From a virus: 44,050 nucleotides of DNA. The DNA is taken from positions 1-44,050 of the IMG/VR virus record IMGVR_UViG_3300009285_000021. One strand, given 5' to 3'. A model generated the notes under the pieces. The model saw only the letters and a list, made by a program, of their open reading frames with translations. It did no database searches and was not told the DNA's origin. Position numbers and translations under genes: made by a program. This document shows, piece by piece, positions 78 through 44,050 of this stretch; within the stretch, counting starts at the first letter, position 1; each line of letters begins with the position of its first letter.

Positions 78-375
78 GTATGACAAGGAAATACAACAGG
101 GAATAACTTACGGAAAGAAGGATTATACTTTCAGAGTGAATATCTGGATTTATCATTCTACAAATGAAGAAGAACAATCTGTAAAATCTTTATCGGAAAC
201 ATCAGAGAGGGTTGAAGAACTTTTAATAGACAACGTAATGAATCCAACACAAGACGGGTCGAAATGGTATCAGTCGGAAATAGAAAAGGTAGAATACGGT
301 ATGGTTGCAAAAGCCAACGAAACGCTACGGACATGTAAACTTACATGCCAATTTAAAAAAAGATTAGTTAAATAA
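1..375 (+). CDS. 3' end of the junction-spanning ORF that starts at 42342. It encodes a C-terminal tail-completion / head-tail joining (DUF3168-like) domain.
   Basis: Position 1 is in frame with the ORF that is open from 42342 to 44050 (44049 corresponds to position 76, the same frame as the ATG at 16). There is no SD before the ATG at 16. The motif pattern LLxxLRxLL...A..G.RVF.G.IP...(hydrophobic)W.. resembles neck/tail-completion proteins, and the gene lies immediately upstream of the major tail gene. Confidence 0.6.
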   Translation, partial: ATAENMAVLIGDRVFLGSIPAIVLEPYDKEIQQGITYGKKDYTFRVNIWIYHSTNEEEQSVKSLSETSERVEELLIDNVMNPTQDGSKWYQSEIEKVEYGMVAKANETLRTCKLTCQFKKRLVK

Positions 376-388
376 ACAGGAGGACATT

Positions 389-1357
389 ATGAGTAATTAC
401 AGTCTAACAAAACTTAAGGGAATTGCAATCGGGCGTGAAACTTCGTACGGTGCAGGTGGTACGGTTTCGGAGTGGATCGGAGCGTCAGAGGAAAGTTTGC
501 AGTTAAGTATTCCTAACGAGAACGTCAACCAGATTGCACAAAGAAGGGAAGTAAAAAAGACTTACCAGAAGGCACGGTCGGTTGAAGGTGGGGTAAACTT
601 TGACGTTGATATAAACAACGGGCTTGGAGTTATCCTGCGGTCGTTCTTTGGTACAGTATCAGACGTTGCCGCTTCTGGAACTTTGGCGTATAAACATACT
701 TACGAATTCCGGCAGGGTGCAGAGGTTGATTCAGTCTGGATTTCTTCAAACAAACTCCCTGGCACAAACGTGGCAAAGAATTACGTTGGACTTGTACCGT
801 CAACAATCGGATTTGATTTTCCGGAAGATGATACGATTAAGGCAAATGTATCTTTCATCGGTCAGAATGAAGCAACTGGAACGGTGATGAACGGAACTTA
901 TGGAACTTTCCAGCCGTTTACTTCAATGGGGAATTTACAGGTATTGATTGACGGTGTTGTCAATGCGGATATTACTAACCTTAGCATTGAGCCGAACAAT
1001 AACGCAAAAAAGATAATGGGCGTGGGAACAAATAACACAATCAGTAAAATTGTATACGGCGAGGTTGCCTGTGAGGGTTCGTTTGATATAGTGTTTGCGG
1101 ATGAAACTGAAAGGAATAAGTTTATAAACAAGACGGCTTCTACTTTACAGGTCAAGTTGACAGGTGCTACTTTGGCGGGAACGGCGAGGGCAGAGTTAAA
1201 CTTTAAAATGCCTGCGGTGGAATACGTTGAAGCTCCGTTTGAAGATAAAGACGGCGTGATCGGTGCGACAATCGGATTCAAGGCAATCTACGGTGCAAAT
1301 GCGGTTGGTACTGGTGCATTGCTTGTGGAATTACAAAATAATAAATCGGCGTACTAA
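389..1357 (+). CDS. Major tail (tube) protein
   Basis: 322-aa ORF with an AGGAGG RBS. It sits between the neck gene and the chaperone/tape-measure genes. The call is by synteny only. Confidence 0.6.
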   Translation: MSNYSLTKLKGIAIGRETSYGAGGTVSEWIGASEESLQLSIPNENVNQIAQRREVKKTYQKARSVEGGVNFDVDINNGLGVILRSFFGTVSDVAASGTLAYKHTYEFRQGAEVDSVWISSNKLPGTNVAKNYVGLVPSTIGFDFPEDDTIKANVSFIGQNEATGTVMNGTYGTFQPFTSMGNLQVLIDGVVNADITNLSIEPNNNAKKIMGVGTNNTISKIVYGEVACEGSFDIVFADETERNKFINKTASTLQVKLTGATLAGTARAELNFKMPAVEYVEAPFEDKDGVIGATIGFKAIYGANAVGTGALLVELQNNKSAY

Positions 1358-1371
1358 CGGAGGAATACTCA

Positions 1372-1719
1372 ATGATAATAAATGACGAAGCGGTTGAATA
1401 TACGTTGAAGGCGGAGAAGGGAAATCCTAATGCTTCCGTATTTCTGCTAAAAGAAATTACTTGCGGAGTATCTTTCCGTGTACAGAACGAAGCAACGTAT
1501 ATTGATGACAAGGGAAAGTATCGGGTTAAACTTGGCGAAGCACAAAAGATACAGCTAACATCTTGCTTGGTCGGGTGGCGGAATGTTAAGAACAAAAAGG
1601 GTGAGGACTTAGCATTCACTACCGAAAACGTTTTGAAATTACCTGTACAGATACAAAATGAATTGAATAACGAAATAAACTTTATCTCAATGCCGAAGGA
1701 TGATGAAGTAAAAAACTGA
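1372..1719 (+). CDS. Tail assembly chaperone (gpG-like short product)
   Basis: 115-aa ORF directly upstream of the tape measure gene. It ends at a slippery heptamer. Confidence 0.7.
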   Translation: MIINDEAVEYTLKAEKGNPNASVFLLKEITCGVSFRVQNEATYIDDKGKYRVKLGEAQKIQLTSCLVGWRNVKNKKGEDLAFTTENVLKLPVQIQNELNNEINFISMPKDDEVKN

Positions 1720-7013: not shown

Positions 7014-7511
7014 ATGATAAAAACAAATCAAAAAGGATCTAATAATTACAATTGGAAGGGTGGGAAAGTAAGTAGGACATGCTTAACGTGTGGAAGTGTA
7101 TTTTATATTTATAAGTCAAGTCTTAATAAAATAAAAAAGGGAGTAAAGGGGAAATATTGTTCTCGTAAATGTTATGGAACTGCTTTATCTAAAAGACAAA
7201 CAGGGGATAAGCATTGGAATTGGAGAGGTGGACTTAGCAAAAATTACACTACAACTTTTGAGTGGAAACAAATAAGATTAAGTATAATAAAAAGAGATAA
7301 TAATAAATGTCGTATTTGCGAAAGTGAAGAAAGATTACAAGTCCATCATATAGTACCATATCGTATAACTCAAGATAACTCTGAGGGAAATTTAATAACA
7401 CTTTGTTTGTCCTGTCACAACAAAGAAGAATGGAGTTATTATAAGAGCAAAAAAGGGCAAATGACCTTTAGTTTTATTAAAGATTGGAGAAGGTTAAATG
7501 CAAAAATATAG
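7014..7511 (+). CDS. HNH homing endonuclease
   Basis: It carries NWKGG/NWRGG repeats and Zn-ribbon CxxC pairs. The HNH core reads CRIC...VHHIVPY...NLITLCLSCHNKEE. Confidence 0.85.
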   Translation: MIKTNQKGSNNYNWKGGKVSRTCLTCGSVFYIYKSSLNKIKKGVKGKYCSRKCYGTALSKRQTGDKHWNWRGGLSKNYTTTFEWKQIRLSIIKRDNNKCRICESEERLQVHHIVPYRITQDNSEGNLITLCLSCHNKEEWSYYKSKKGQMTFSFIKDWRRLNAKI

Positions 7512-31498: not shown

Positions 31499-32909
31499 AA
31501 TAAGCATAGCCGATAAAGATATACGTGCAAGGATAATTGATATGGCTATTGCCTGTGGAATTACAGACGATTATCAGCATGAAATGATATTTGATGAAAG
31601 TCGGGATATTGTTATAGACAAGGCAAGGGGTATAGGTATAACAACGGCGGTATCATTTCAGAAAATGATTAAGATTTTAATGCCTGAATTGTGGTCGTCC
31701 GCTCAAAGAGAAAATGTTATAGTTTCAGCCGGTGCAGAACAAGCTAGACACTTGATTGATTACGTTAAACACTTCTGGTCGGTGTTAGAAAGTCAGTTTT
31801 CGCAGAAGTTAAAGATAACGAAGGACAAGGCGGAAACTTCGGACGGTCGATGGATTATGTCTTTAGCTTGTGAGCCAGATAGTATTCGTACTTATCACGG
31901 GGACGTAGTGTTTGATGAGTTTGCATATTTTGAGAATGGGTTAGATCGTAAATTCTTTAAGGCGGTATCTGGTGTACAGACTTCCGGCGGTCAGACACAT
32001 TATATCTCTAATCCGAATGGTGAAGCAGGTACGTTCTTTGATATATGGCGTGACAAACAGGGAATTTACAAAAAGTATAGTTTACCTTATACGGTTTGTA
32101 AAAGGAAAATGTACCGTGATACTGTTCTTCGTGCAAAGAAGAAATTATTTGATTACGAGTTTGACGAAGAGTATTGTTGTCTGTTTAATCCCGCTTCACG
32201 TGGGGCTATACCTTATAAGTATATTGATAATGCGGTGAAACAATGGGCGGAGTTGGGGTTAAAGATTAACGAGTACCGTAAAACCGATTGTATGTTAGGA
32301 ACAGGAATTGACTTTGCTAAAATGGTTGACCAAACAATATTGGTAACGCTGGAAAAAAGGAATATGCTTAAAATACCGTATTGGTTGGAAGTTGTTCTCG
32401 GTGATTATGACGAACAATTAAATTACATAGACCGCTTGGACGGAGAGATTAACTCACAGCAAGTATTCTTTGACAAGACTGGTAATGTTAAGTTAGCAGA
32501 GGAAATTGAAAAGCGTTTTTCGCTAAAGTATGTCGGTAAACAATTTACTAATCCGTATAAAGAGAAGTTATTCCAGAAAATCAAGTATGCTTTAATGGAT
32601 CGTAAGTTGCCTTTACCAAATGACGAAGCTTTAATCCGACAACTGAAAGGGCTTAAACGCAAGGTATCCGCTTCGGGCAATGTTCAGTACGCAGGTAAGG
32701 AAGATGACTATGTTTGGGCTTTAGGATTGGCGTTGGACTGTATCGAAGAGGAGGGCGGGGATATTTCAATTGAGGAACGTACTACCGTTGAGAACACAAA
32801 ACACAAAGAAGCTAATCAAGTTATACGCCCGTCTGTATTAACGCAGACAGGTGACTTTGGACGTGGTGAAGTCCGTACAGGTGCAAACTGGGGAGGGATG
32901 TTTAAATGA
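31488..32909 (+). CDS. terL: Terminase large subunit
   Basis: The Walker A-like motif is DKARGIGITT and the Walker B motif is VVFDEFAYF. The C-terminal nuclease region contains GIDFA...D. Length 473 aa. Confidence 0.85.
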   Translation: MANEISIADKDIRARIIDMAIACGITDDYQHEMIFDESRDIVIDKARGIGITTAVSFQKMIKILMPELWSSAQRENVIVSAGAEQARHLIDYVKHFWSVLESQFSQKLKITKDKAETSDGRWIMSLACEPDSIRTYHGDVVFDEFAYFENGLDRKFFKAVSGVQTSGGQTHYISNPNGEAGTFFDIWRDKQGIYKKYSLPYTVCKRKMYRDTVLRAKKKLFDYEFDEEYCCLFNPASRGAIPYKYIDNAVKQWAELGLKINEYRKTDCMLGTGIDFAKMVDQTILVTLEKRNMLKIPYWLEVVLGDYDEQLNYIDRLDGEINSQQVFFDKTGNVKLAEEIEKRFSLKYVGKQFTNPYKEKLFQKIKYALMDRKLPLPNDEALIRQLKGLKRKVSASGNVQYAGKEDDYVWALGLALDCIEEEGGDISIEERTTVENTKHKEANQVIRPSVLTQTGDFGRGEVRTGANWGGMFK

Positions 32910-33400
32910 ATTATTACCCGTCAACAACAGATAAGATGTGGAATGAAGAAAACAAATACACAATCGGCTATTGTTATGGCTTAGGCTTAGATGTAGGTTG
33001 TGGCAATAGGACTTTGCAACCTAATATGATTACGGTAGACAACTGGGCGGACGGTGCTGATTACAAAATGGAAGCGGATAACTTACACGAGTTTAAAGAC
33101 AAGATGTTTGACTTTGTTTATGCTTCTCACGTCTTAGAACATTTGAAAAGTCCGTTAGAAGCAATTGAAGAGTGGTTGCGGGTAGTTAAGGTCGGCGGGT
33201 ATGTAATTATAATAACACCTGATATGCGGTTTGTGCCGACAAAGGGAATGGCAAACGGTGACCCTCAACACAAGTACGACTGGAAGCGTGAAGAGGTTAG
33301 AGAAATGGTCGAGATGTTATCGGGTTGCGAAATGGTTAATAAGAACGTATGGGCGTTGCCTAATTACTCAATGTTGTTTGTTTTGCGGAGGATTAAGTGA
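32906..33400 (+). CDS. Class I SAM-dependent methyltransferase (small, Methyltransf_11-like)
   Basis: Motif I is GLDVGCGN, followed by FDFVYASHVLEHL and VKVGGYVIIITP. Confidence 0.75.
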   Translation: MNYYPSTTDKMWNEENKYTIGYCYGLGLDVGCGNRTLQPNMITVDNWADGADYKMEADNLHEFKDKMFDFVYASHVLEHLKSPLEAIEEWLRVVKVGGYVIIITPDMRFVPTKGMANGDPQHKYDWKREEVREMVEMLSGCEMVNKNVWALPNYSMLFVLRRIK

Positions 33401-33579: not shown

Positions 33580-34497
33580 ATGGCTCGAATACTTATGTGC
33601 TACGCACGAGATGAATACACTACAGCAAGGCATTTTGAAAACGTAATACGGAAATCTAAAGACCATCAGTTTTTAGGTGTTGGATTCACAAAGCCGAATC
33701 TGGCTTCCGTTATGGGCGATCAAGCATGGATTCCAACAGCACAAGAAGTGGTGCTCCCTGATTTACTTTCTAAACTACCCGCTAAACCTGATATTGTTAT
33801 AGTCATGCAGGGATTTGCACCAATGAAGATATATGGAATTGAATCCATAGATATACCCTCGGTGTATTATGGGATAGATACTCATATGGTTCGGGACGTG
33901 ATATTTGAGGAAGCAAAGAATTATAAACATGTATTCTTTGCACAAAAAAAAGCAATTCCAGAGTTTAAAGAGTTTTGCGGTAAGGATAGTCATTGGTTGC
34001 CTTGTTGTGCCGAACCTTTAATCCATAAATCTATGAACTTCGAGCCGGAATATGATTTTGCCTTTGTTGGCGGTATAGATTTAAGCGAAGCCCACAAGCC
34101 CCGCCGGGACGCTATTAAAAAGCTAAAGGAAAAGTATAAGGTGTTTGTAGGAAATGCTTACGGGTACTTTATGACAATGCAATATAACAAAGCAAAGGTG
34201 GTATTTAATTACGCCGTTAATGATGACTTGAATATGAGGGTATTTGAAGCAATGGCTTGTAAAAGACCTCTTTTAACAAATAAATTAAGCGTTGAGAGCG
34301 GTTTAAACGAGTTATTTCAGGACGGGGTAAACCTTATGACCTTTGATGATAACAATTTAATGGAAAAGGCAGAATTGCTTATAAAGGATAAAGCATTACG
34401 AGATAAACTGGCTCAGTCGGGATATACCGAAGTAGTCAATAAACATACTTATCAGAAACGACTGGAGGCAATATGGCAGACAATAGCGAAGACTTAG
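33580..34497 (+). CDS. CgeB-like glycosyltransferase (Glyco_trans_1_2 / DUF3880-type)
   Basis: DFAFVGG...RRDAIKKL...YNKAKVVFNY...NMRVFEAMACKRPLLTN...GYTEVVNKHTYQKRL is typical of the CgeB spore-maturation glycosyltransferase family. Confidence 0.65.
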   Translation: MARILMCYARDEYTTARHFENVIRKSKDHQFLGVGFTKPNLASVMGDQAWIPTAQEVVLPDLLSKLPAKPDIVIVMQGFAPMKIYGIESIDIPSVYYGIDTHMVRDVIFEEAKNYKHVFFAQKKAIPEFKEFCGKDSHWLPCCAEPLIHKSMNFEPEYDFAFVGGIDLSEAHKPRRDAIKKLKEKYKVFVGNAYGYFMTMQYNKAKVVFNYAVNDDLNMRVFEAMACKRPLLTNKLSVESGLNELFQDGVNLMTFDDNNLMEKAELLIKDKALRDKLAQSGYTEVVNKHTYQKRLEAIWQTIAKT

Positions 34498-34733: not shown

Positions 34734-36803
34734 ATGGCAAGACCAAAGGGAGTAAAGTTAGAAAAGAAAACAAAGGACGTACAACTCGGACAAAGTGTAA
34801 TTATTCCTATCCGTGAATATTCTCTTATGGCGGGAAATAAAATTGCCTACAATCCTGATACAATCTCACTTGAAACTTACAACGAGATGCGAAAGTTTCC
34901 TACCATTGCAGGTGCGTTAGATGTAATTAAACTTCCGATAATTTCTGTTGACTGGTATATTGAATCAAGCGACGAAAGAAAAAAGAAATTTGTAGACAAA
35001 GTGTTGCGTGATATATGGGCGGGGTTTATTCGGGATTTACTTACAGCTTATGATTTTGGATTTTCCGCATTTGAGAAAGTATTTGATATGAACGAAGACA
35101 CAAAAATAATAATTAAAAAACTATTCTCATTAAGTCCTTTTTATACAAAAATAAGACGGACTGATGATGTAAGTTTTGACGGTATATATTTTCAGCCTCA
35201 AGGTGCTTCGGGTGCAAGTGGAATAACTTTAAGTGCAGATAAGTCATTTATATTTACTTACAAAAAAGAGTTTGAGAATATGTACGGTGCTCCCAGAATC
35301 AGGGGTGCTTATACCGCTTGGTACATAGCCAGATATATTTTAGAGTTTACAAATATATTTTACGAAAGATATTCAAGCCCGCAATTAGTCGGGTACGCTC
35401 CGACTGCAAAGATAGATTATCAAGGAAAGAAAACGGAAGCGACAAAATACTTACTTGATGTAATGAAGTCAATGCAAAATGCGTCCTCGGTTGTTCTCCC
35501 GCATACGGGCGGAAAGAAAGATGAATTAAAATATCATATAGACATTTTAGAATCTGCTCGTACTGGTGGCGACTTCATTAACTATCTCAAGTACCTTGAC
35601 AATCAAATGTTTACGGGTTCAGGTATTCCGCCTTTAGCATATTCCGCAGGTGAGAAAGGGTCATATAGCTTATTTGAAACACAGCAGGCGTTATTCGCAC
35701 AAGGTGTTGACGGTGATTTGACTGTAATAAAACAACACATTGACACGTACATAATCAAGCCGTTAATAAAATATAACTTTCCTGATTCAGCGAATGACGA
35801 TACAAGATGGGTGTATCAATCACTTGCGAATAGAGATAAGGAGCTTACACGTCAGATTATGATTGCCTTAGTACAGCAAGGCAAGGTTGATGTGGCTGTA
35901 AAGTATTTAAGTGAAGCTTTAGGTATGCCTATGATTGAAACTGGAAAGATAATTGAGGAAGCAAAGCAGGTTGCTTCTCCGACAGAAGGCAAAGCAACAG
36001 GACAAGCGAATCAAGCGAAGTTGTCAAGGAATCCGAACGTAAAAAGATATGACGATAAAATAAATTACGAACGTATTGATAAACAATATGATGACAATGA
36101 GCAAATGATTATTGGGTCGTTAATGCCTGTACTTACGAAACAAAAAATTAAATTACTTGATAGCATACAGAAGTCAATAAAGAATCCTGCTCAAATATCG
36201 GGGATGGAATTATCATTTAAGTCAGAGTACGAAACAAAAGTTGTTGAAGCCGCAAAGAAAATATTTAATGACGGCGAAATGGATGTGAAGTCCGAAAACA
36301 AAGTCAGGGTTACCTTACCGAAAGAGGCAGGATCATGGGTGGTTGCTTCGTCAAAGAACATAGCAGACAAACACATGAACGATTTAAAATTCTCGGTTAT
36401 ATCCGCAACGCTGTTAGCAATATCAAAAGAGATGAGCGAAAAGGAAACGTTATTTAAAGCAAGTGAAGCATTTGATAAATACACGGATGTATCTTTGAGT
36501 GATAGTGCCGCTTTGATTTCGCAGAAGTATTACAGTGAGGGTCGGGAGTACGTGGCAGTTGAAGCGGGAATAAAGTACGCCCAGTGGTCGGCGGTTTTGG
36601 ACGGCAAGGAATGTGAGTTTTGTAACGGACGTGACGGCATGATTGTTGAGGTAGCTTCTCCTGACTTCTCGGAATACTCTCCAGGGAACGTTCACGAGAA
36701 TTGCCGTTGTATGTGGATTTATTTAGACACAGAAAATTTCCCAGAGGGAGCGACAGAGTGGCGTTCCCCTTCGAAACGTGACGTTAAGCAGTATTATCAA
36801 TAG
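34734..36803 (+). CDS. Portal protein fused to a MuF / SPP1-gp7-like head-morphogenesis domain
   Basis: 689 aa, in the position after TerL. The C-terminal 110 aa read AVLDGKECEFCNGRDGMIV...PGNVHENCRCMW, which is the Phage_Mu_F signature. Confidence 0.8.
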   Translation: MARPKGVKLEKKTKDVQLGQSVIIPIREYSLMAGNKIAYNPDTISLETYNEMRKFPTIAGALDVIKLPIISVDWYIESSDERKKKFVDKVLRDIWAGFIRDLLTAYDFGFSAFEKVFDMNEDTKIIIKKLFSLSPFYTKIRRTDDVSFDGIYFQPQGASGASGITLSADKSFIFTYKKEFENMYGAPRIRGAYTAWYIARYILEFTNIFYERYSSPQLVGYAPTAKIDYQGKKTEATKYLLDVMKSMQNASSVVLPHTGGKKDELKYHIDILESARTGGDFINYLKYLDNQMFTGSGIPPLAYSAGEKGSYSLFETQQALFAQGVDGDLTVIKQHIDTYIIKPLIKYNFPDSANDDTRWVYQSLANRDKELTRQIMIALVQQGKVDVAVKYLSEALGMPMIETGKIIEEAKQVASPTEGKATGQANQAKLSRNPNVKRYDDKINYERIDKQYDDNEQMIIGSLMPVLTKQKIKLLDSIQKSIKNPAQISGMELSFKSEYETKVVEAAKKIFNDGEMDVKSENKVRVTLPKEAGSWVVASSKNIADKHMNDLKFSVISATLLAISKEMSEKETLFKASEAFDKYTDVSLSDSAALISQKYYSEGREYVAVEAGIKYAQWSAVLDGKECEFCNGRDGMIVEVASPDFSEYSPGNVHENCRCMWIYLDTENFPEGATEWRSPSKRDVKQYYQ

Positions 36804-39001: not shown

Positions 39002-40090
39002 ATGTTTCTAACTTCTGTAATCAGATTACCTGGCTTCGAAGTAGGTGGAGAGTTCCTTAACTTATACGGACTTGAGCCGTGTAAGACATCTTTGAATACA
39101 ATAAACTTTTTGGCAAAATCACCAATGGCAGAATATATTGCGATTGAGGAAGAGCCGGAAGCTTACAAGAAAAGATATTTTAAAGGTTGTCTTGCATTGA
39201 ATCCGAAATCAAATATCTTAGTAAGTAGATACGGTGGTCTGGGGGATATTCAATTTATACTTCCTGCAATTAAGGAAATCAAGAAACGTTATCCCGAAGT
39301 AAAAATAAGAATGGCAGTCATGGAAAAAGACCGTGAGATGATTCATAATTGTGATTTTATAGACAGTTTTTGTCAGACACATTTTCCGACAGTGAAGGAT
39401 TTAGAATGGTCGGATTATGTACTGGACTTTTTTGATACGGTTGAGGGAATCGGCGAGGACGAAGCGAAGTTAAGAAATCCGATAGATATATCGGCTGAAA
39501 TAGTTGGGTTGAAGTTATCGGACTATAAAGGATTTTGGAAAACAACGGTTGAGGAAAAGAAGTGGGCGGAGTCTATTTTTGCAGGTCGTAAGGGGTTAAA
39601 AATAGCTATGCCGTTATCTGCTTCGTCACCTCATAGGTCGTGGACGTTACAAGATGAACTTATACAAAAGTTAGTAGAGTGGAATAAGGATATTACAGTT
39701 GTTATATTCGGTGAGGGTCAAGGTCATGCGGAAGCGGTTTACAATCGGATTAAACGGTTAAATATTCCGAACGTGATTGATATGGTCGGGAAAACTACTA
39801 CAAGGCAGTATGTGAACTTGGCTTTAGAAGCGGATTGCATTTTCACAAATGATTCGGGAATTGTTAATCTTGGAGCAATCTTTGACAAAAAGATTTTAGC
39901 GATTTACTCAACTGTACCCGCTGAAACAAGAATTAACCATTACGAAACGGTGCAGGGGTTACAAGTTAAGAGCAGTTGTTCCCCTTGCTACAAATTATCG
40001 GCAGAGTGTTTGCATAAAGACAAATGCTTAAATACGGTTACGGTCAATGAAGTGTTTACCAAAATCGTTAGTATGCTGGAGGTCAAATGA
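39002..40090 (+). CDS. Glycosyltransferase family 9 (heptosyltransferase-like)
   Basis: Motifs ILVSRYGGLGDIQFILPAIKEIKKRYPE and VGKTTTRQYVNLALEADCIFTNDSGIVNLGAIFDKKILAIYS are classic GT9 motifs. AGGAGG RBS. Confidence 0.7.
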   Translation: MFLTSVIRLPGFEVGGEFLNLYGLEPCKTSLNTINFLAKSPMAEYIAIEEEPEAYKKRYFKGCLALNPKSNILVSRYGGLGDIQFILPAIKEIKKRYPEVKIRMAVMEKDREMIHNCDFIDSFCQTHFPTVKDLEWSDYVLDFFDTVEGIGEDEAKLRNPIDISAEIVGLKLSDYKGFWKTTVEEKKWAESIFAGRKGLKIAMPLSASSPHRSWTLQDELIQKLVEWNKDITVVIFGEGQGHAEAVYNRIKRLNIPNVIDMVGKTTTRQYVNLALEADCIFTNDSGIVNLGAIFDKKILAIYSTVPAETRINHYETVQGLQVKSSCSPCYKLSAECLHKDKCLNTVTVNEVFTKIVSMLEVK

Positions 40091-40851
40091 CTTACGAAGT
40101 TATCATTTTGAACTGGAACGCAGTATCAAAACTGGCGTATTGTTTGGAAGCATTAAAACAAAACTCTTTCTATACTTCAAAGATAACGGTTATTGACAAC
40201 GCTTCAACGGACGGAAGTATTGAGTTTTTAAAACTTAAAAAGGTCAATGCTATATTCAATACAGAAAACAAACTCTTCACAAAGGCGTATGCGGATTATT
40301 TAAAAGTAGGTGGTAAGGATAAATACTTTGTTGTTATGAATAACGATTGCGTAGTTGAAAAGAATTGGGATAAACCGTTAATTGAGTTTATGGAAAAGAA
40401 CGAACGGGTCGGATTGGTAGCACCTATGTTGGTTGATATAACAGGTCAGCAAGTACAGAATATGGGCGGACTGGCGGACTTCTGTTCTCACAAGGGCGGA
40501 GTACCACAGATGTGGAAACAACCGGAAGAGAACTTATGGACTACCGGGGCTTGTATTATGGTTCGGCGTTCTGCATTTGATGAAGTCGGCGGATTTGATG
40601 AACAGTTTGCGTTCTATTGCTCAGATAGTGATTTGTGTTTGAAATTGGGTTTTGCTGGTTACAAAGTATTCAACATACCCGAAAGCAAGGTCAGACATTT
40701 TCACATGCAGTCAACAAGAAAAGCACAAAGCGAAGGATTACCGATAATGCAGATAGGTCAGCAAGACCAGTTAAAATTTAACCGCAAATACGAGTTACAC
40801 GGTTTGCGGATAGGTCAAATGAGAGAGCCAGTATTGGAGGCAGTTGTATGA
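40087..40851 (+). CDS. Glycosyltransferase family 2
   Basis: Motifs VIILNWNA...TVIDNASTDGS...VMNNDC...GACIMVRRSAFDEVGGFDEQFAFYCSDSDLCLK. Confidence 0.8.
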   Translation: MTYEVIILNWNAVSKLAYCLEALKQNSFYTSKITVIDNASTDGSIEFLKLKKVNAIFNTENKLFTKAYADYLKVGGKDKYFVVMNNDCVVEKNWDKPLIEFMEKNERVGLVAPMLVDITGQQVQNMGGLADFCSHKGGVPQMWKQPEENLWTTGACIMVRRSAFDEVGGFDEQFAFYCSDSDLCLKLGFAGYKVFNIPESKVRHFHMQSTRKAQSEGLPIMQIGQQDQLKFNRKYELHGLRIGQMREPVLEAVV

Positions 40852-41597
40852 GTTATTCAGGCACAGGGGATATAATAAATCGGTGGAACGGCACACGTAG
40901 AATCACGGTGGGTGCTGGTACTTTTATGATTACGACTAATGTTATCGAAGCTATGATAATAAAAGCGGACGCAATCATTGACGTATACACAAGTAATATT
41001 TACGGGACAACTGGTTTCGGTACAAACGTATACGGAACAAAAAGCGTACCACCTATTATAAAATCAATCAGCGAGGATTTAGCGGCGGCGTATTGTATTG
41101 ATGGGTTGGTAATACCCGTGGAAGATGAACTACTTTCTTACGGAACAAGATTAGAAGAAAGAGCAATGGGATTACTAGAAAAAATATCCGCAGGGGAATT
41201 ACCTTTACTCGGATACAATCCAGAAGAAACTGCAATACCTCAAGGCGGAGATTATGACTTTACCGTGTATGATGAAGTTGTTTCATTAAGCGGTACGGAG
41301 TTGGTCAATCTTGCTTGGCGAAAGGTTGTACCTTATAGTGAAGATGTAAAGATAAATGTTTTAGACGGTACAACTGAATATGTTAGAGATACAGATTACA
41401 AAATGTATTACTTTAATGACAGGACTTCGGGAACTAACTTCGGAAAGATTAGACGGTTAGCGACTGGCTCGATAACAAACAATCAACAGGTTAAGATTTC
41501 TTACAACGTCTATAAAGAGCATGTTTTTGGAATAGTTGATCGGCAGGCAATGGGGCAAGTTGACAGTAATGTTGGAATAGGTCAGGTGCTTCCATGA
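40848..41597 (+). CDS. Head-tail connector/adaptor candidate
   Basis: ATGA-coupled 249-aa ORF in the connector slot. The N-terminal helices (IEAMIIKADAIIDVY) are gp6-like. Weak call. Confidence 0.45.
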   Translation: MSYSGTGDIINRWNGTRRITVGAGTFMITTNVIEAMIIKADAIIDVYTSNIYGTTGFGTNVYGTKSVPPIIKSISEDLAAAYCIDGLVIPVEDELLSYGTRLEERAMGLLEKISAGELPLLGYNPEETAIPQGGDYDFTVYDEVVSLSGTELVNLAWRKVVPYSEDVKINVLDGTTEYVRDTDYKMYYFNDRTSGTNFGKIRRLATGSITNNQQVKISYNVYKEHVFGIVDRQAMGQVDSNVGIGQVLP

Positions 41598-42061
41598 ACG
41601 TAGAAATTAAAGGTTTAGACGAGTTGAAACGGATAATGTCAGATATTCGTACTGACATACTTAACGATTCGTCAGAACTTCTAGATTACATAGCGGACAA
41701 GGTTGTTTTCCCGTCTATCATTCGAAACTTTAAAGAAGAGGGACGTCCGAAGTGGCAGGGGTTAGCACCTCGTACACAATTAGAAAGAGCAGGGGAAGGT
41801 TATCCGCCTTCTAATCCGATTCTGTTTCGGACCGGCGAACTGTTTAGAAACTCGACAACAAAAGACGGGGTTAATTACGACTTAGGAAAACATCAGTTGA
41901 CTATGGATTGCATGTTGCGGAAGGGTGAGTGGTTGCATTTTGGAGTTGGCAAGTTACCTGCAAGACCGTTCTTTTACTTACAGAAAGAAGATGAAGCGAA
42001 AGCGGATAGAGAAGTTGGGGTTTTTGTTTCTAAAAAATTACAAAGGATATTAAAGGCATGA
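41594..42061 (+). CDS. Virion morphogenesis / neck protein (Mu gpG or HK97 gp10-like)
   Basis: GRPKWQGLAP.T...PILFRTGELF.S...HFGVGKLPARPFFYL matches the conserved C-terminal (L)P.RPF motif of this family. Confidence 0.6.
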   Translation: MNVEIKGLDELKRIMSDIRTDILNDSSELLDYIADKVVFPSIIRNFKEEGRPKWQGLAPRTQLERAGEGYPPSNPILFRTGELFRNSTTKDGVNYDLGKHQLTMDCMLRKGEWLHFGVGKLPARPFFYLQKEDEAKADREVGVFVSKKLQRILKA

Positions 42062-42351
42062 AATATTATAAAATAAAAACTATTAAAATAAGTAACAATA
42101 CAAGTCAAGATCCTAGTTGGTTGGATGAAAAATATAATAATGGAACTATTAAACGGATTAGATGTTCATCTGATTTAAGTTATGTTTTAGTTGTTTCAAA
42201 AGAATTATTAAACATAAAAGATATATTGGAAATAACCGATATTGAAAAAGAACTTGATATTATATATAGTGAATATCCTTTTATTGATGAATATGGAGTA
42301 ACTATAAATAGACCGACATTAAAAGAAATAGTGGGGGATATATGGCTATAA
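42058..42351 (+). CDS. Hypothetical protein (97 aa), AT-rich
   Basis: ATGA-coupled ORF with noticeably lower GC than the upstream genes. Confidence 0.45.
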   Translation: MKYYKIKTIKISNNTSQDPSWLDEKYNNGTIKRIRCSSDLSYVLVVSKELLNIKDILEITDIEKELDIIYSEYPFIDEYGVTINRPTLKEIVGDIWL

Positions 42352-44050
42352 TCAATATATCTGGAACTATAGGAACTAATGGAACTTGGACTAACAATAA
42401 TGAATATCATTTTACAGCTAATTCTGAAATATCTAAAAATGTTAATATTAAAATAGAACCGAATACTCATGTGATGTATGATTCGGCAGTAACATTTAAT
42501 GTTAGGGGCGGACTAAATGCGATTGGTAATTTTGGTTCAAGAATATATTTTGAAAGTTCTTTAGCTGCTCCACGGACAAATTCTTTTACTTCAGCATTAT
42601 CTATGGGTACACATGATTTAATTAATTTGGACTATATAACTATTCGTAATTGTTCCAATGCTTTTAAATTTAATGGAAGTACTAATCTTGGTAATTTTCA
42701 AGGAAGCCATATCTTTACCGAGAATACAACAAATGTTAATAATATCGCTCCATCGGTAAATGATTATATAAAATATTCATATTCTATTTTTAATTATCCG
42801 AATAATTTATTTAACAATGCAAATAATTTTACATTATATCATGATACATGTGAAATTATGGCTAATGGTAATTTGACTACTGGTACGAACACAGTTAATA
42901 CATTATTTAAAGATGTTAAATTTACAGGCCATTCTGCAGTTGTTAGACTAAATTCTTTTCAAGGTACTGGGATGTATTTTAAAAAAGTAACAAATGTGGA
43001 TTGGTATGGAACTAACAATGTTTTAGAAAGCAGTATATTTGATATATTAGCTTTCAGTCGTTCTTTATTGGGTGCTGATATAAAAGCCAATAAATGCGAG
43101 TATGTTAGTTATCTTCCATCTGCTCAAATTACAGGTACAGTAATTACCGGAACGTTGATTGGTGCAGGACAGTTTAATAATTGTTATGTTGCAGGGTTAA
43201 ATTCTTATGTTAATACATATTGCGAAACCGGAACAGGTGGAAGTATTGACGGGACAGTTGCTGTAACAAGTGCAGGAACAATGTTATCTAATGTTAAATA
43301 TTACGCTTTAAGTGGAACATCAAGGCGATTTACTTTCCTTCCAACAAATATATCAGTTGGAACTGTAGGGACGAATCAAGCCGTTGTTAGTTGGAATACT
43401 GATTTTAGAACTGAACATTCTTTAGTAATAGGCACAATATCTGGCAATTATAATGGGACTATATCTCCGTTTTATTGTTGGACTGGATGTTATGGAAATG
43501 ATTTATATGGAACTACTGCTCAAGTAACTGCATGCTCTCTTCAGGCTGGAACATATTTTTATGTACCAAGATCATACGATTTATTAAAAGATGTTTGGGT
43601 GTCGGGAACAGAAGGAACTTTTGTAATAAGCACAATGTCCATAACGAATGTAACAATAGATAAAACATCAATGACTACTGCGGATAGTGTAACTGTAACT
43701 ATAACCACAGCAACAGGAACTCCGACTGTTGTAGGTGTAAGAATAAACGGAATAGATTTTGAAGCTAGTGGTTCTGCGGGAACGTATACTGTAACAATAA
43801 AAGGAATAAATATAGGAATCGGTTCTGCATTGTCAGTTGTTGCTTATGCGACAAACGATAGTAGTGGAGATGGCATGACTTGTGCAAATACATTAACTGT
43901 AACTCAATCGGTTTACAGTAATCAATACAATATACTGTTAGGTGACTTAAGAGATTTGCTCAATGCAGAGTTTGCTACTGCTGAAAATATGGCTGTGTTA
44001 ATCGGTGATAGGGTATTTCTCGGAAGTATTCCTGCTATTGTTCTTGAGCC
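42342..44050 (+). CDS. 5' part of a junction-spanning 668-aa ORF (it continues at 1-375). It encodes a right-handed beta-helix domain, FN3-like and Ig-like modules, and a neck-protein domain.
   Basis: I translated it by hand from the ATG at 42342 and found no stop before the window end. It is absent from the ORF track, presumably because it has no in-window stop. PbH1-like repeats are present (LDYITIRNCSNAFKFNG..., FTGHSAVVRLN). The FN3-like segment is ISVGTVGTNQAVVSWNT, and the Ig-like segment is ITNVTIDKTSMTTADSVTVTIT. Confidence 0.7.
   Translation, partial: MAIINISGTIGTNGTWTNNNEYHFTANSEISKNVNIKIEPNTHVMYDSAVTFNVRGGLNAIGNFGSRIYFESSLAAPRTNSFTSALSMGTHDLINLDYITIRNCSNAFKFNGSTNLGNFQGSHIFTENTTNVNNIAPSVNDYIKYSYSIFNYPNNLFNNANNFTLYHDTCEIMANGNLTTGTNTVNTLFKDVKFTGHSAVVRLNSFQGTGMYFKKVTNVDWYGTNNVLESSIFDILAFSRSLLGADIKANKCEYVSYLPSAQITGTVITGTLIGAGQFNNCYVAGLNSYVNTYCETGTGGSIDGTVAVTSAGTMLSNVKYYALSGTSRRFTFLPTNISVGTVGTNQAVVSWNTDFRTEHSLVIGTISGNYNGTISPFYCWTGCYGNDLYGTTAQVTACSLQAGTYFYVPRSYDLLKDVWVSGTEGTFVISTMSITNVTIDKTSMTTADSVTVTITTATGTPTVVGVRINGIDFEASGSAGTYTVTIKGINIGIGSALSVVAYATNDSSGDGMTCANTLTVTQSVYSNQYNILLGDLRDLLNAEFATAENMAVLIGDRVFLGSIPAIVLE
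43974..44050. repeat. Second copy of the 77-bp terminal overlap
   Basis: Identical to bases 1-77. Confidence 0.95.

What the first reader, a model, noticed from the sequence alone, without database searches (positions are those of the whole stretch)
42342..44050. Junction-spanning fusion of a beta-helix/FN3/Ig fibre-like module to a neck (tail-completion-like) domain
Seen in sequence:
- Hand translation from the ATG at 42342 runs without a stop to the window end.
- Through the 77-bp overlap it continues in frame into ORF 16-375, giving 668 aa in total.
- Residues 1 to about 530 are AT-rich at the DNA level (about 32 percent GC in sampled 60-mers, against about 37-48 percent just upstream).
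- That region carries parallel beta-helix-type repeats plus FN3-like and Ig-like segments.
- The last approximately 135 aa (YNILLGDLRDLL...GDRVFLGSIP...) look like a DUF3168-type tail-completion or head-tail joining protein.
- The gene sits exactly in that slot, just before the major tail gene. There is no SD before the internal ATG at 16.

Established knowledge: beta-helix domains are typical phage depolymerases or receptor-binding appendages. Neck appendages and collar or whisker structures are known as separate proteins in phi29-like and lactococcal phages.

Inference: this is a covalent neck-fibre, which would place 6-12 depolymerase-like appendages at the head-tail junction. The composition break suggests a recent module fusion.
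Basis: partly seen in the sequence, partly recalled or inferred. Interest (0 to 1): 0.65.

Follow-up and report, generated by a model that had tools for sequence, protein, structure and literature searches.

The report
Tail terminator carrying a swappable beta-helix appendage
In this uncultured 44-kb phage, the small protein that caps the top of the tail tube is fused to a 520-residue, sugar-binding-type appendage that related phages lack or have replaced, so the virus probably carries six exchangeable "whiskers" built into its neck.

Summary
The window is a circular contig with a 77-bp end overlap, and the ATG at 42342 opens a 668-aa ORF ending at 375.

The fusion does not depend on the junction. 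The Ig-to-neck-domain boundary lies at about 43905, 70 nt before the overlap.

The last ~145 aa have a tail-terminator fold (lambda gpU, T5 p142, R4C). They are the genome's only terminator copy and sit directly before the tube gene.

Residues 1-520 model confidently as beta-helix, FN3 and Ig-like domains.

Thirteen relatives encode this terminator as a free 143-149-aa protein in the same slot. Genomes about 89% identical have an "empty" site. An 86%-identical genome carries a different beta-helix fused through a related Ig domain. Three further lineages also carry fusions.

The locus is therefore an insertion and replacement cassette (about 42062-43950) and the lowest-GC stretch of the genome.

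New point: the upstream 97-aa ORF (42058-42351) is the detached N-terminal domain of the same module. It is fused in a relative's 800-aa protein and split here at a G5 run.

Best reading: six covalent neck appendages for glycan binding or cleavage. Enzymatic activity and virion display are untested. I found no published terminator-appendage fusion.

The parts
41594..42061 (+). Neck1 / tail-completion-like gene (155 aa). It is the left flank of the cassette, and its stop overlaps the next start (ATGA).
   Evidence: phrog_26 E 1.2e-9. Collinear at 78-89% nt with relatives up to 42061-42083.
42058..42351 (+). 97-aa ORF: the detached N-terminal domain ('MKYY...(T)DEPxWL' type) of the beta-helix protein family. 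It uses the start position of the ancestral terminator gene. GC is 23.5%.
   Evidence: BLASTP to P0001 residues 1-76, E 1e-6. An HMM of the N-domains of 16 family members, built without this ORF, hits it at E 1e-9. GC.
42333..42337 (+). G5 run where the reading frame changes between the 97-aa and 668-aa ORFs. One extra G would fuse them (…KEIVGGYMAIINISG…, collinear with …KEIELKSKRINYSG… of P0001). The run also serves as the only SD-like element, 4 nt before ATG 42342.
   Evidence: Sequence and alignment A5. No stimulatory RNA structure downstream (z = -0.24).
42342..43331 (+). Right-handed beta-helix-type domain (residues 1-330 of the 668-aa ORF).
   Evidence: AF2 gives short beta-strands only, with pLDDT mostly 75-96. 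Homologue P0017 passes the Pfam Beta_helix PF13229 threshold, and distant cellular homologues carry Beta_helix/NosD.
43344..43631 (+). FN3-like domain (residues 335-430).
   Evidence: AF2 pLDDT 78-97. Foldseek hits to FN3 tandems. Pur_ac_phosph_N (an FN3-type domain) passes threshold in P0017 and is weak in P0001.
43641..43901 (+). Ig-like connector domain (residues 434-520). It contains GVRINGIDFEASGSAGTYTVTIKG, which is under strong purifying selection.
   Evidence: AF2. The 24 aa are identical to P0001 despite 13 synonymous differences in 72 nt. A related motif is present in the L012 and L013 fusions.
43911..44050 (+). Tail terminator domain, first part (residues ~524-570). The fusion point lies 70 nt before the terminal overlap.
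   Evidence: Alignment with free terminators starting MITYTNT…. Foldseek to R4C, lambda gpU, T5 p142 and others at E 4e-7 to 1e-5.
78..375 (+). Tail terminator domain, second part (residues 571-668 plus the stop). Bases 1-77 repeat 43974-44050.
   Evidence: single terminator copy in the genome.
42062..43952 (+). Variable cassette. It is absent from empty-site relatives (L005, L006, L007, L014, L016) and replaced by an unrelated beta-helix cassette in L013. It is the lowest-GC stretch of the genome.
   Evidence: blastn break points at 42061-42083 and 43919-43953. GC.
389..1357 (+). Tail tube (major tail) gene, the right flank.
   Evidence: Pfam Phage_tube_2 E 9e-32.

Best explanation
**What it is.** The gene encodes the phage's only tail terminator protein. 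This is the ring that caps the head-proximal end of the tail tube and docks it to the neck. Here it carries a 520-residue N-terminal extension.

**Domain order.** A glycan-recognising right-handed beta-helix is followed by an FN3 spacer, a conserved Ig-like connector, a flexible linker of about 20 residues, and then the terminator domain.

**Expected structure.** Terminators form hexameric rings, so six appendages should radiate from the neck as a covalent collar or whisker set. The most likely job is reversible binding to, or cleavage of, a host surface polysaccharide. That would be auxiliary adsorption, like lactococcal neck-passage structures or phi29 gp12.

**Origin.** The extension is an exchangeable cassette inserted exactly at the 5' end of an otherwise free-standing terminator gene. 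It arrived together with a small N-terminal domain, which in this genome is split off as a separate 97-aa ORF.

**Shown versus inferred.**
- Shown: ORF continuity, domain folds, terminator identity by fold and synteny, single copy, cassette insertion and replacement, recurrence in other lineages.
- Inferred: hexameric display on the virion, outward-facing N-terminus, glycan binding or cleavage.
For: **ORF and folds**
- The ORF is 668 aa.
- The C-terminal domain model has pLDDT 79.5. Its top 50 PDB matches are terminators or collar proteins of long-tailed phages and tailocins, at E 4e-7 to 5e-4 and TM up to 0.69. In the full-length search, gpU reaches TM 0.75.
- Weak hits go to three PHROG 'tail terminator' families, and phrog_8346 matches 11 of 15 members.

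**Synteny and copy number**
- The gene sits between the Neck1 gene and the Phage_tube_2 tube gene.
- It is the only terminator-domain copy in the genome.
- Thirteen free-standing homologues of 143-149 aa occupy the identical slot.

**Cassette behaviour**
- Empty-site alleles occur in genomes 78-89% nt identical, with break points at 42061-42083 and 43919-43953.
- L013 is 86% identical in the flanks but carries a different beta-helix plus Ig fused to a terminator that is 77% identical over the last 206 aa.
- Other fusions are P0001 (800 aa, mid-contig in 3 samples), P0017 (787 aa) and L012 (427 aa).
- The cassette is the genome's GC minimum.

**Appendage nature**
- Full-length AF2 pLDDT is 84, with a low-confidence linker at 505-527.
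- Beta_helix and FN3 Pfam hits are found in homologues.
- The Ig connector is under purifying selection.

**Literature**
- Neck-passage structures with beta-helix or CBM tips bind host cells in lactococcal phages (PMC6669499).
- Terminators with additional domains are known (PMC11784142).
Against: - There are no virion data. The host is unknown, and there is no relative among cultured phages or GTDB genomes.
- The window protein has no significant Pfam or PDB sequence hit.
- Beta-helix structures were not among the top 50 Foldseek hits of the full-length model.
- No conserved catalytic acid pair was seen in the helix.
- In T5 p142 the N-terminus takes part in the subunit interface, and an N-terminal His-tag kept the protein monomeric (PMC11784142). 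A bulky N-terminal extension is therefore not trivially compatible with ring assembly.
- An in-frame ATG with a GGAG site (Met512, 43875) could yield a free 157-aa terminator.
Confidence: 0.7

Rival explanations
1. Assembly or circularisation artefact: the long ORF exists only because two unrelated pieces were joined at the 77-bp overlap or by a chimeric path.
For: - The ORF crosses the contig ends.
- P0002, a free terminator, is 100% identical to the window protein from ...DLLNAEF through ...LIDNV and differs only upstream.
Against: - The Ig-to-terminator boundary (~43905) lies in contiguous sequence, and the first 23 terminator residues are encoded before the overlap.
- Homologous full-length fusions lie mid-contig in three independent samples, in IMG/VR L013 and in JGI L012.
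- Divergence around the break points is gradual rather than a sharp chimera edge.
Confidence: 0.02
2. Two products: most terminator subunits are made as a short ~157-aa protein from the internal Met512 (GGAG-N5-ATG at 43875) or by proteolysis in the linker. The ring would then carry few or no appendages, and the long form would be minor, or would act as a free enzyme or chaperone.
For: - There is an SD-like GGAG 5 nt upstream of the in-frame ATG 43875.
- The linker at 505-527 is predicted flexible.
- A T5 terminator with an N-terminal tag stayed monomeric (PMC11784142).
Against: - No equivalent internal start with an SD exists in L001. Met512 is not conserved in the aligned fusion proteins P0001 and P0017, or in the related P0015.
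- The fusion is kept in frame in at least 5 lineages, and the Ig connector is under purifying selection. Neither would be needed if the parts acted separately.
Confidence: 0.15
3. The true gene is a ~765-aa protein (97-aa ORF plus 668-aa ORF), made by -1 ribosomal frameshifting at the G5 run or at UUA-AAA-G, or hidden by a one-base homopolymer error (G6 read as G5).
For: - The 97-aa ORF is homologous to the N-terminus of P0001 and family, where it is fused.
- The two ORFs overlap by 10 nt, and a -1 shift gives a junction collinear with the homologues.
Against: - There is no canonical X XXY YYZ heptamer and no downstream RNA structure (z = -0.24).
- ATG 42342 has its own G-rich SD-like element.
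- L013 also has a separate small ORF (90 aa) before its fusion gene.
- G5 errors are uncommon in short-read assemblies.
Confidence: 0.12
4. The extension is a non-enzymatic decoration, such as Ig/FN3-type weak adhesion to mucus or debris or neck stabilisation, rather than a host-specific receptor-binding or depolymerase module.
For: - Ig and FN3 domains are common 'sticky' phage decorations.
- There is no conserved catalytic signature and no Pfam enzyme family.
Against: - Replacement of the distal beta-helix by an unrelated one between 86%-identical genomes is the pattern expected of host-specificity modules.
- The family has many beta-helix relatives in other phages and in cell-surface proteins.
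Confidence: 0.2

Closest known systems
Tail terminator proteins (lambda gpU, SPP1 gp17 / Pfam PF11367, T5 p142, R4C terminator)
   Same: - The last 145 aa share the alpha/beta fold (Foldseek E about 1e-6, TM 0.6-0.75).
- The gene position directly upstream of the tube gene is the same.
- Free-standing relatives have the same ~145-aa size.
   Different: - This protein carries a 520-aa N-terminal beta-helix/FN3/Ig extension.
- It has no sequence-level membership in any Pfam terminator family.
- The known 'large' terminators add domains for sheath termination or by duplication (PMC11784142), not as an outward appendage.
Lactococcal neck passage structure (NPS, collar/whiskers; TP901-1, 936 group)
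   Same: - It is an optional, highly variable appendage at the head-tail junction.
- Some NPS classes end in beta-helix or CBM domains and bind host cells (PMC6669499).
- Presence, absence and type vary between close relatives.
   Different: - NPS is a separate protein, anchored by a BppU-like N-terminal ring domain and a trimeric coiled coil, with 18 copies.
- Here the anchor is the terminator itself at the C-terminus, there is no coiled coil, and six copies are expected.
phi29 gp12 neck appendages
   Same: It is a beta-helix appendage at the neck used for primary adsorption or cleavage of a wall polymer.
   Different: - gp12 is a separate trimeric protein of a podophage, bound to the collar, with a cleaved C-terminal chaperone.
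- No homology was detected here.
'Evolved' Dit, Tal and major-tail-protein (TpeX) extensions carrying CBMs in Gram-positive siphophages
   Same: The principle is the same: a core structural ring protein of the tail is used as a covalent carrier for exchangeable carbohydrate-binding modules.
   Different: - Those carriers sit at the tail tip or along the tube.
- I did not find the terminator described as a carrier.
Oshimavirus P74-26 collar protein gp112 (two Ig domains around the neck)
   Same: Ig-type domains form lobes around a siphophage neck next to a gpU-like terminator (PMC12407722).
   Different: gp112 is a separate protein present in 12 lobes and has no beta-helix.

Membership tests
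Tail terminator protein (gpU / gp17 / p142 fold class) | Alpha/beta terminator fold | tested here: met
   - The AF2 domain model has pLDDT 79.5.
- Foldseek PDB hits include R4C 8gtf_k at E 4e-7, lambda gpU, T5 p142, the P74-26 terminator and pyocin/monocin caps.
- gpU reaches TMt 0.75 in the full-length search.
Tail terminator protein (gpU / gp17 / p142 fold class) | Gene lies between the neck/tail-completion genes and the major tail (tube) gene, as a single copy | tested here: met
   - The order is Neck1 (phrog_26), then this gene, then Phage_tube_2.
- The same order holds in 10 related loci.
- There is one terminator-domain hit in the six-frame translation.
Tail terminator protein (gpU / gp17 / p142 fold class) | Sequence membership in a curated terminator family (Pfam PF11367/DUF3168, PF06141, Phage_tail_terminator_n; PHROG terminator families) | tested here: not met
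   - No Pfam hit reaches threshold; the best is PF20765 at E 0.06 in one homologue.
- PHROG terminator families hit only at E 2e-3 to 0.04.
- PF11367 scores E 9e-4, below threshold, and only in the distant L012 fusion.
Tail terminator protein (gpU / gp17 / p142 fold class) | Forms a hexameric ring capping the tube and binding the head-side stopper | not testable with these tools
   No multimer modelling or virion data were available.
Right-handed parallel beta-helix (Pfam Beta_helix PF13229 / pectin-lyase fold) | Profile match above the curated threshold | tested here: inconclusive
   - The window protein has no hit.
- Homologue P0017 scores 28.8 bits against a cut-off of 25.9, and cellular homologues score up to 122 bits.
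- The unrelated L013 cassette scores 22.6 bits.
Right-handed parallel beta-helix (Pfam Beta_helix PF13229 / pectin-lyase fold) | Solenoid of short beta-strands in the 3-D model | tested here: inconclusive
   - AF2 gives only short strands over residues 1-330 at high pLDDT.
- Model coordinates could not be inspected.
- No beta-helix structure was in the top 50 Foldseek hits.
Phage depolymerase / tailspike | Conserved catalytic acidic residues in the helix groove, and trimeric assembly | tested here: not met
   - Only N147 and D253 are near-invariant in the helix of 15 homologues, so no catalytic pair was identified.
- No coiled coil or trimerisation module was seen in the model.
- Activity was not testable.
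Lactococcal NPS (collar-whisker) proteins | BppU-like N-terminal ring domain plus a trimeric coiled coil, encoded as a separate gene | tested here: not met
   - No helical region lies before residue 528.
- There is no PHROG or Pfam match.
- The anchor here is a C-terminal terminator domain.

The most novel reading that the evidence does not exclude
The tail terminator gene of a widespread, uncultured siphophage clade may be a dedicated docking site for exchangeable host-recognition cassettes. A conserved Ig-like connector would couple unrelated beta-helix modules covalently to the terminator ring, giving phages a second specificity organ at the head-proximal end of the tail. A very distant virus, possibly archaeal (L012), has the same Ig-terminator design. 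That would make this an old and general solution that has not been described.
Probability: 0.4. Interest if true: 0.7.

Novelty: new variant of a known kind. Interest (0 to 1): 0.6.

Why it matters
**Where specificity is sought.** Host-range determinants of siphophages are looked for at the tail tip. A covalent, swappable appendage on the terminator ring would add a new and easily missed location for receptor-binding or depolymerase modules.

**Annotation.** Such genes are currently left unannotated. None of the fusion proteins has a name or a Pfam domain in the databases searched.

**Assembly and engineering.**
- It would show that the terminator tolerates a 4-fold size increase at its N-terminus, which is relevant to assembly models.
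- It suggests the terminator as a display scaffold for phage engineering.
- The empty, cassette-A and cassette-B alleles in 86-89% identical genomes form a natural experiment on module exchange.

Tried and rejected
1. **Junction artefact:** rejected. The fusion point lies upstream of the overlap, and there are independent mid-contig homologues.
2. **Programmed -1 frameshift joining the 97-aa and 668-aa ORFs:** no heptamer and no downstream structure. Kept only as a low-probability rival.
3. **Conserved internal start for a free terminator:** Met512 has a GGAG site, but L001 has no equivalent SD-preceded start and Met512 is not conserved in the aligned homologues P0001, P0015 and P0017.
4. **Recent transfer of the Ig domain between the window and the P0001 lineage:** rejected. 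13 of 72 nt differ synonymously, which indicates purifying selection instead.
5. **Relatives among cultured phages:** none for the fusion. The terminase reaches only ~24% identity (Mu/B3-like), and the tube protein gives one weak hit to an unannotated faecal-metagenome phage record.
6. **Host via prophages in GTDB genomes:** two scans found nothing. No tRNAs were found.
7. **Sequence-level matches to PDB:** none for either module.
8. **IMG/VR scans with the fusion alignment, P0015 and P0017:** nothing. An alignment of 15 family members was too divergent for pattern search.
9. **L011 (context of the free beta-helix homologue P0021):** a different phage type, uninformative about neck location.
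10. **Homology between the small ORFs of cassette A (97 aa) and cassette B (90 aa):** not detected.
Full report
**1. The observation**

The first 77 bases of the window repeat its last 77, so the contig is a circle of 43,973 bp. Translation from ATG 42342 continues through the overlap to the stop at 373-375, giving 668 aa.

Genes in this genome have strong GGAGG ribosome-binding sites. ATG 42342 is preceded by a G5 run with a 4-nt spacer. The ATG at 16 has nothing.

The composition break is real. The stretch absent from relatives (42071-43937) is 31.3% GC, against 37.2 +/- 2.9% for equal-sized windows. It ranks in the lowest 0.3% of windows. The genome-wide 1-kb GC minimum (26.7%) begins at 42051, inside the upstream 97-aa ORF (23.5% GC).

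**2. The C-terminal domain is the tail terminator**

- PHROG gives only weak hits: phrog_8346 and 'tail terminator' phrog_20428. Pfam gives none.
- A profile search found 13 free-standing homologues of 143-149 aa, 26-92% identical. Each is encoded between a Neck1-like gene and a Phage_tube_2 tube gene in syntenic ~42-kb phage contigs.
- An AF2 model built on 15 sequences (pLDDT 79.5) matches only terminator or cap proteins in the PDB. These include R4C 8gtf_k at E 4e-7, lambda gpU, T5 p142, the P74-26 terminator and pyocin/monocin/diffocin collars.
- The domain occurs once in the genome.

It is therefore a terminator by fold and synteny, but not a member of any curated sequence family.

**3. 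The N-terminal 520 residues**

The full-length AF2 model (32-sequence alignment, pLDDT 84.2) has four parts:

| Residues | Predicted element |
|---|---|
| 1-330 | short-strand all-beta region |
| 335-430 | FN3 domain |
| 434-520 | Ig-like domain |
| 505-527 | low-confidence linker, leading into the terminator's N-terminal helix |

Foldseek recovers FN3 tandems and terminators.

An exhaustive HMMER search with the N-terminal module found 188 proteins. The closest form a phage family with this layout:
- a shared ~100-aa N-domain (MKYY…NDIIK…TDEPxWL);
- the beta-helix;
- the FN3 domain;
- variable C-termini.

One family member, P0017, passes the Pfam thresholds for Beta_helix and for an FN3-type domain. 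Remote cellular homologues carry Beta_helix/NosD.

No conserved catalytic pair is evident. 'Depolymerase' therefore remains a possibility, not a finding.

**4. The fusion is genuine, recurrent and cassette-like**

The free terminators begin MITYTNT(Y/F)N…. This aligns with …QSVYSNQYN… of the window protein, placing the fusion point at about 43905, 70 nt before the overlap.

At the DNA level the window is collinear with its relatives on both sides of the cassette:

| Relatives | nt identity | Collinear up to | Resumes at | State of the site |
|---|---|---|---|---|
| L005, L006, L007, L014, L016 | 71-90% | 42061-42070 | 43938-43953 | empty |
| L013 (IMG/VR, 42.9 kb) | 86% left flank, 80% right flank | 42083 | 43919 | different cassette |

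In the empty-site relatives only the first ~25 bases of the free terminator gene lie between the two break points.

L013 carries a 90-aa ORF plus a 558-aa protein. That protein consists of an unrelated 'TIQAALD'-type beta-helix, an Ig domain and a terminator that is 77% identical over the last 206 aa.

Further fusions:
- P0001, 800 aa and 32% identical over the full length, lying mid-contig in three separate samples.
- P0017, 787 aa.
- A 427-aa protein in the very distant contig L012. Its Ig motif VGVRINGKDF and terminator-like C-terminus (PF11367, E 9e-4) resemble the same design.

The Ig stretch GVRINGIDFEASGSAGTYTVTIKG is identical between the window and P0001 despite 13 synonymous changes in 72 nt. 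This indicates selection on the connector rather than recent transfer.

**5. The upstream 97-aa ORF belongs to the module**

- ORF 42058-42351 starts on the ATGA overlap with the Neck1 gene. This is where the free terminator gene starts in empty-site relatives.
- It is homologous to the N-domain that is fused to the beta-helix in P0001 and the wider family.
- Its C-terminus (…LKEIVGDIWL*) and the start of the 668-aa ORF (MAIINISG…) are collinear with …EKEIELKSKRINYSG… of P0001 if one G is added to the G5 run at 42333-42337.
- No frameshift heptamer or stimulatory structure is present.

The simplest reading is a one-base indel that split an ancestral ~765-aa gene, with both parts still expressed. 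Frameshifting or a homopolymer error cannot be excluded without reads.

**6. Mechanism**

Shown:
- There is a single terminator gene whose product carries an exchangeable beta-helix/FN3/Ig extension on a flexible tether.

Inferred from established knowledge of terminators:
- Terminators form hexameric rings (lambda gpU: PMC10721106; crystallised terminators: PMC11784142). By analogy, six appendages should emanate from the ring at the head-tail junction.
- By analogy with the tube-like fold, where the tube protein gpV has its helix on the outer ring surface (PMC10721106), the terminator's N-terminal helix would face outward.

By analogy with lactococcal NPS collars (PMC6669499) and phi29 gp12, they would mediate auxiliary, host-specific attachment to a surface glycan, or its cleavage.

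A caution comes from T5 p142. Its N-terminus contributes to the subunit interface, and an N-terminal tag blocked oligomerisation (PMC11784142). Ring assembly with a large extension therefore needs direct testing.

**7. Comparison and novelty**

- Extra domains on terminators are known for sheath termination and in PVC16 (PMC11784142).
- Neck collars are known as separate proteins: NPS (PMC6669499) and P74-26 gp112 (PMC12407722).
- CBM-bearing 'evolved' Dit and MTP proteins show the same carrier principle at other positions.
- In five literature searches I found no description of a terminator used as a covalent carrier of an outward appendage.

I rate it a new variant of a known kind. The clade has no cultured relative and no identified host.

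**8. Verdict**

- Corrections: six copies rather than 6-12; the carrier is the tail terminator; the module begins at 42058; DUF3168 similarity holds at fold level only; enzymatic activity is unproven.

Noticed in passing
window 33580-34497, 39002-40090, 40087-40851 and 32906-33400; same positions in L001, L004, L006, L008, L013: Three glycosyltransferases sit inside the head and neck gene block: GT1-like before the portal, GT9 right after the major capsid gene, and GT2 before the adaptor. A SAM methyltransferase is also present. The arrangement is conserved across the clade and suggests glycosylation of virion proteins. The appendage itself is rich in N-x-S/T and Thr.
   Followed up: partly
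window 34734-36803: The portal is a 689-aa protein combining Portal_Mu with a C-terminal Mu F-like domain. The protease and terminase are also Mu/B3-like (~24% identity), although the tail is a non-contractile Phage_tube_2 type.
   Followed up: partly
window 40848-41597: The head-tail adaptor (Mu gp36-like, residues 25-136) has a ~110-aa C-terminal extension. The extension is weakly similar to Ig-domain major tail proteins (phrog_807, E 3e-3), so it may be a second neck decoration. In L016 the same region is called as two ORFs (121 + 110 aa).
   Followed up: no
L012 9-2222 and 2227-3510 (JGI Ga0272442_10007328): This is a very distant virus contig. A sequon-rich (N-x-T/S) LamG/ConA-like protein of at least 737 aa lies directly upstream of a 427-aa Ig-terminator fusion. 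A GT2-like gene follows the putative tube gene. The contig is possibly an archaeal tailed virus.
   Followed up: partly
P0015 residues ~650-694 and P0021 residues ~700-744: Two free beta-helix/FN3/Ig homologues end in a shared ~30-aa peptide, RGKSWxFxLxNCGxxRxIxFxGE..SDK, instead of a terminator domain. It may be a different virion-anchoring tag.
   Followed up: no
window 7014-7511; L001 6852-7397: HNH endonuclease genes sit at different places in the structural modules: after the 1011-aa tail protein in the window, and between GT9 and GT2 in L001. This is consistent with mobile homing elements.
   Followed up: no
window 1372-1719 and 1740-1973: Two small ORFs lie between the tube gene and the 528-aa putative tape-measure gene, in the usual position of the tail assembly chaperone pair (G/GT-type frameshift). 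No slippery site was looked for.
   Followed up: no
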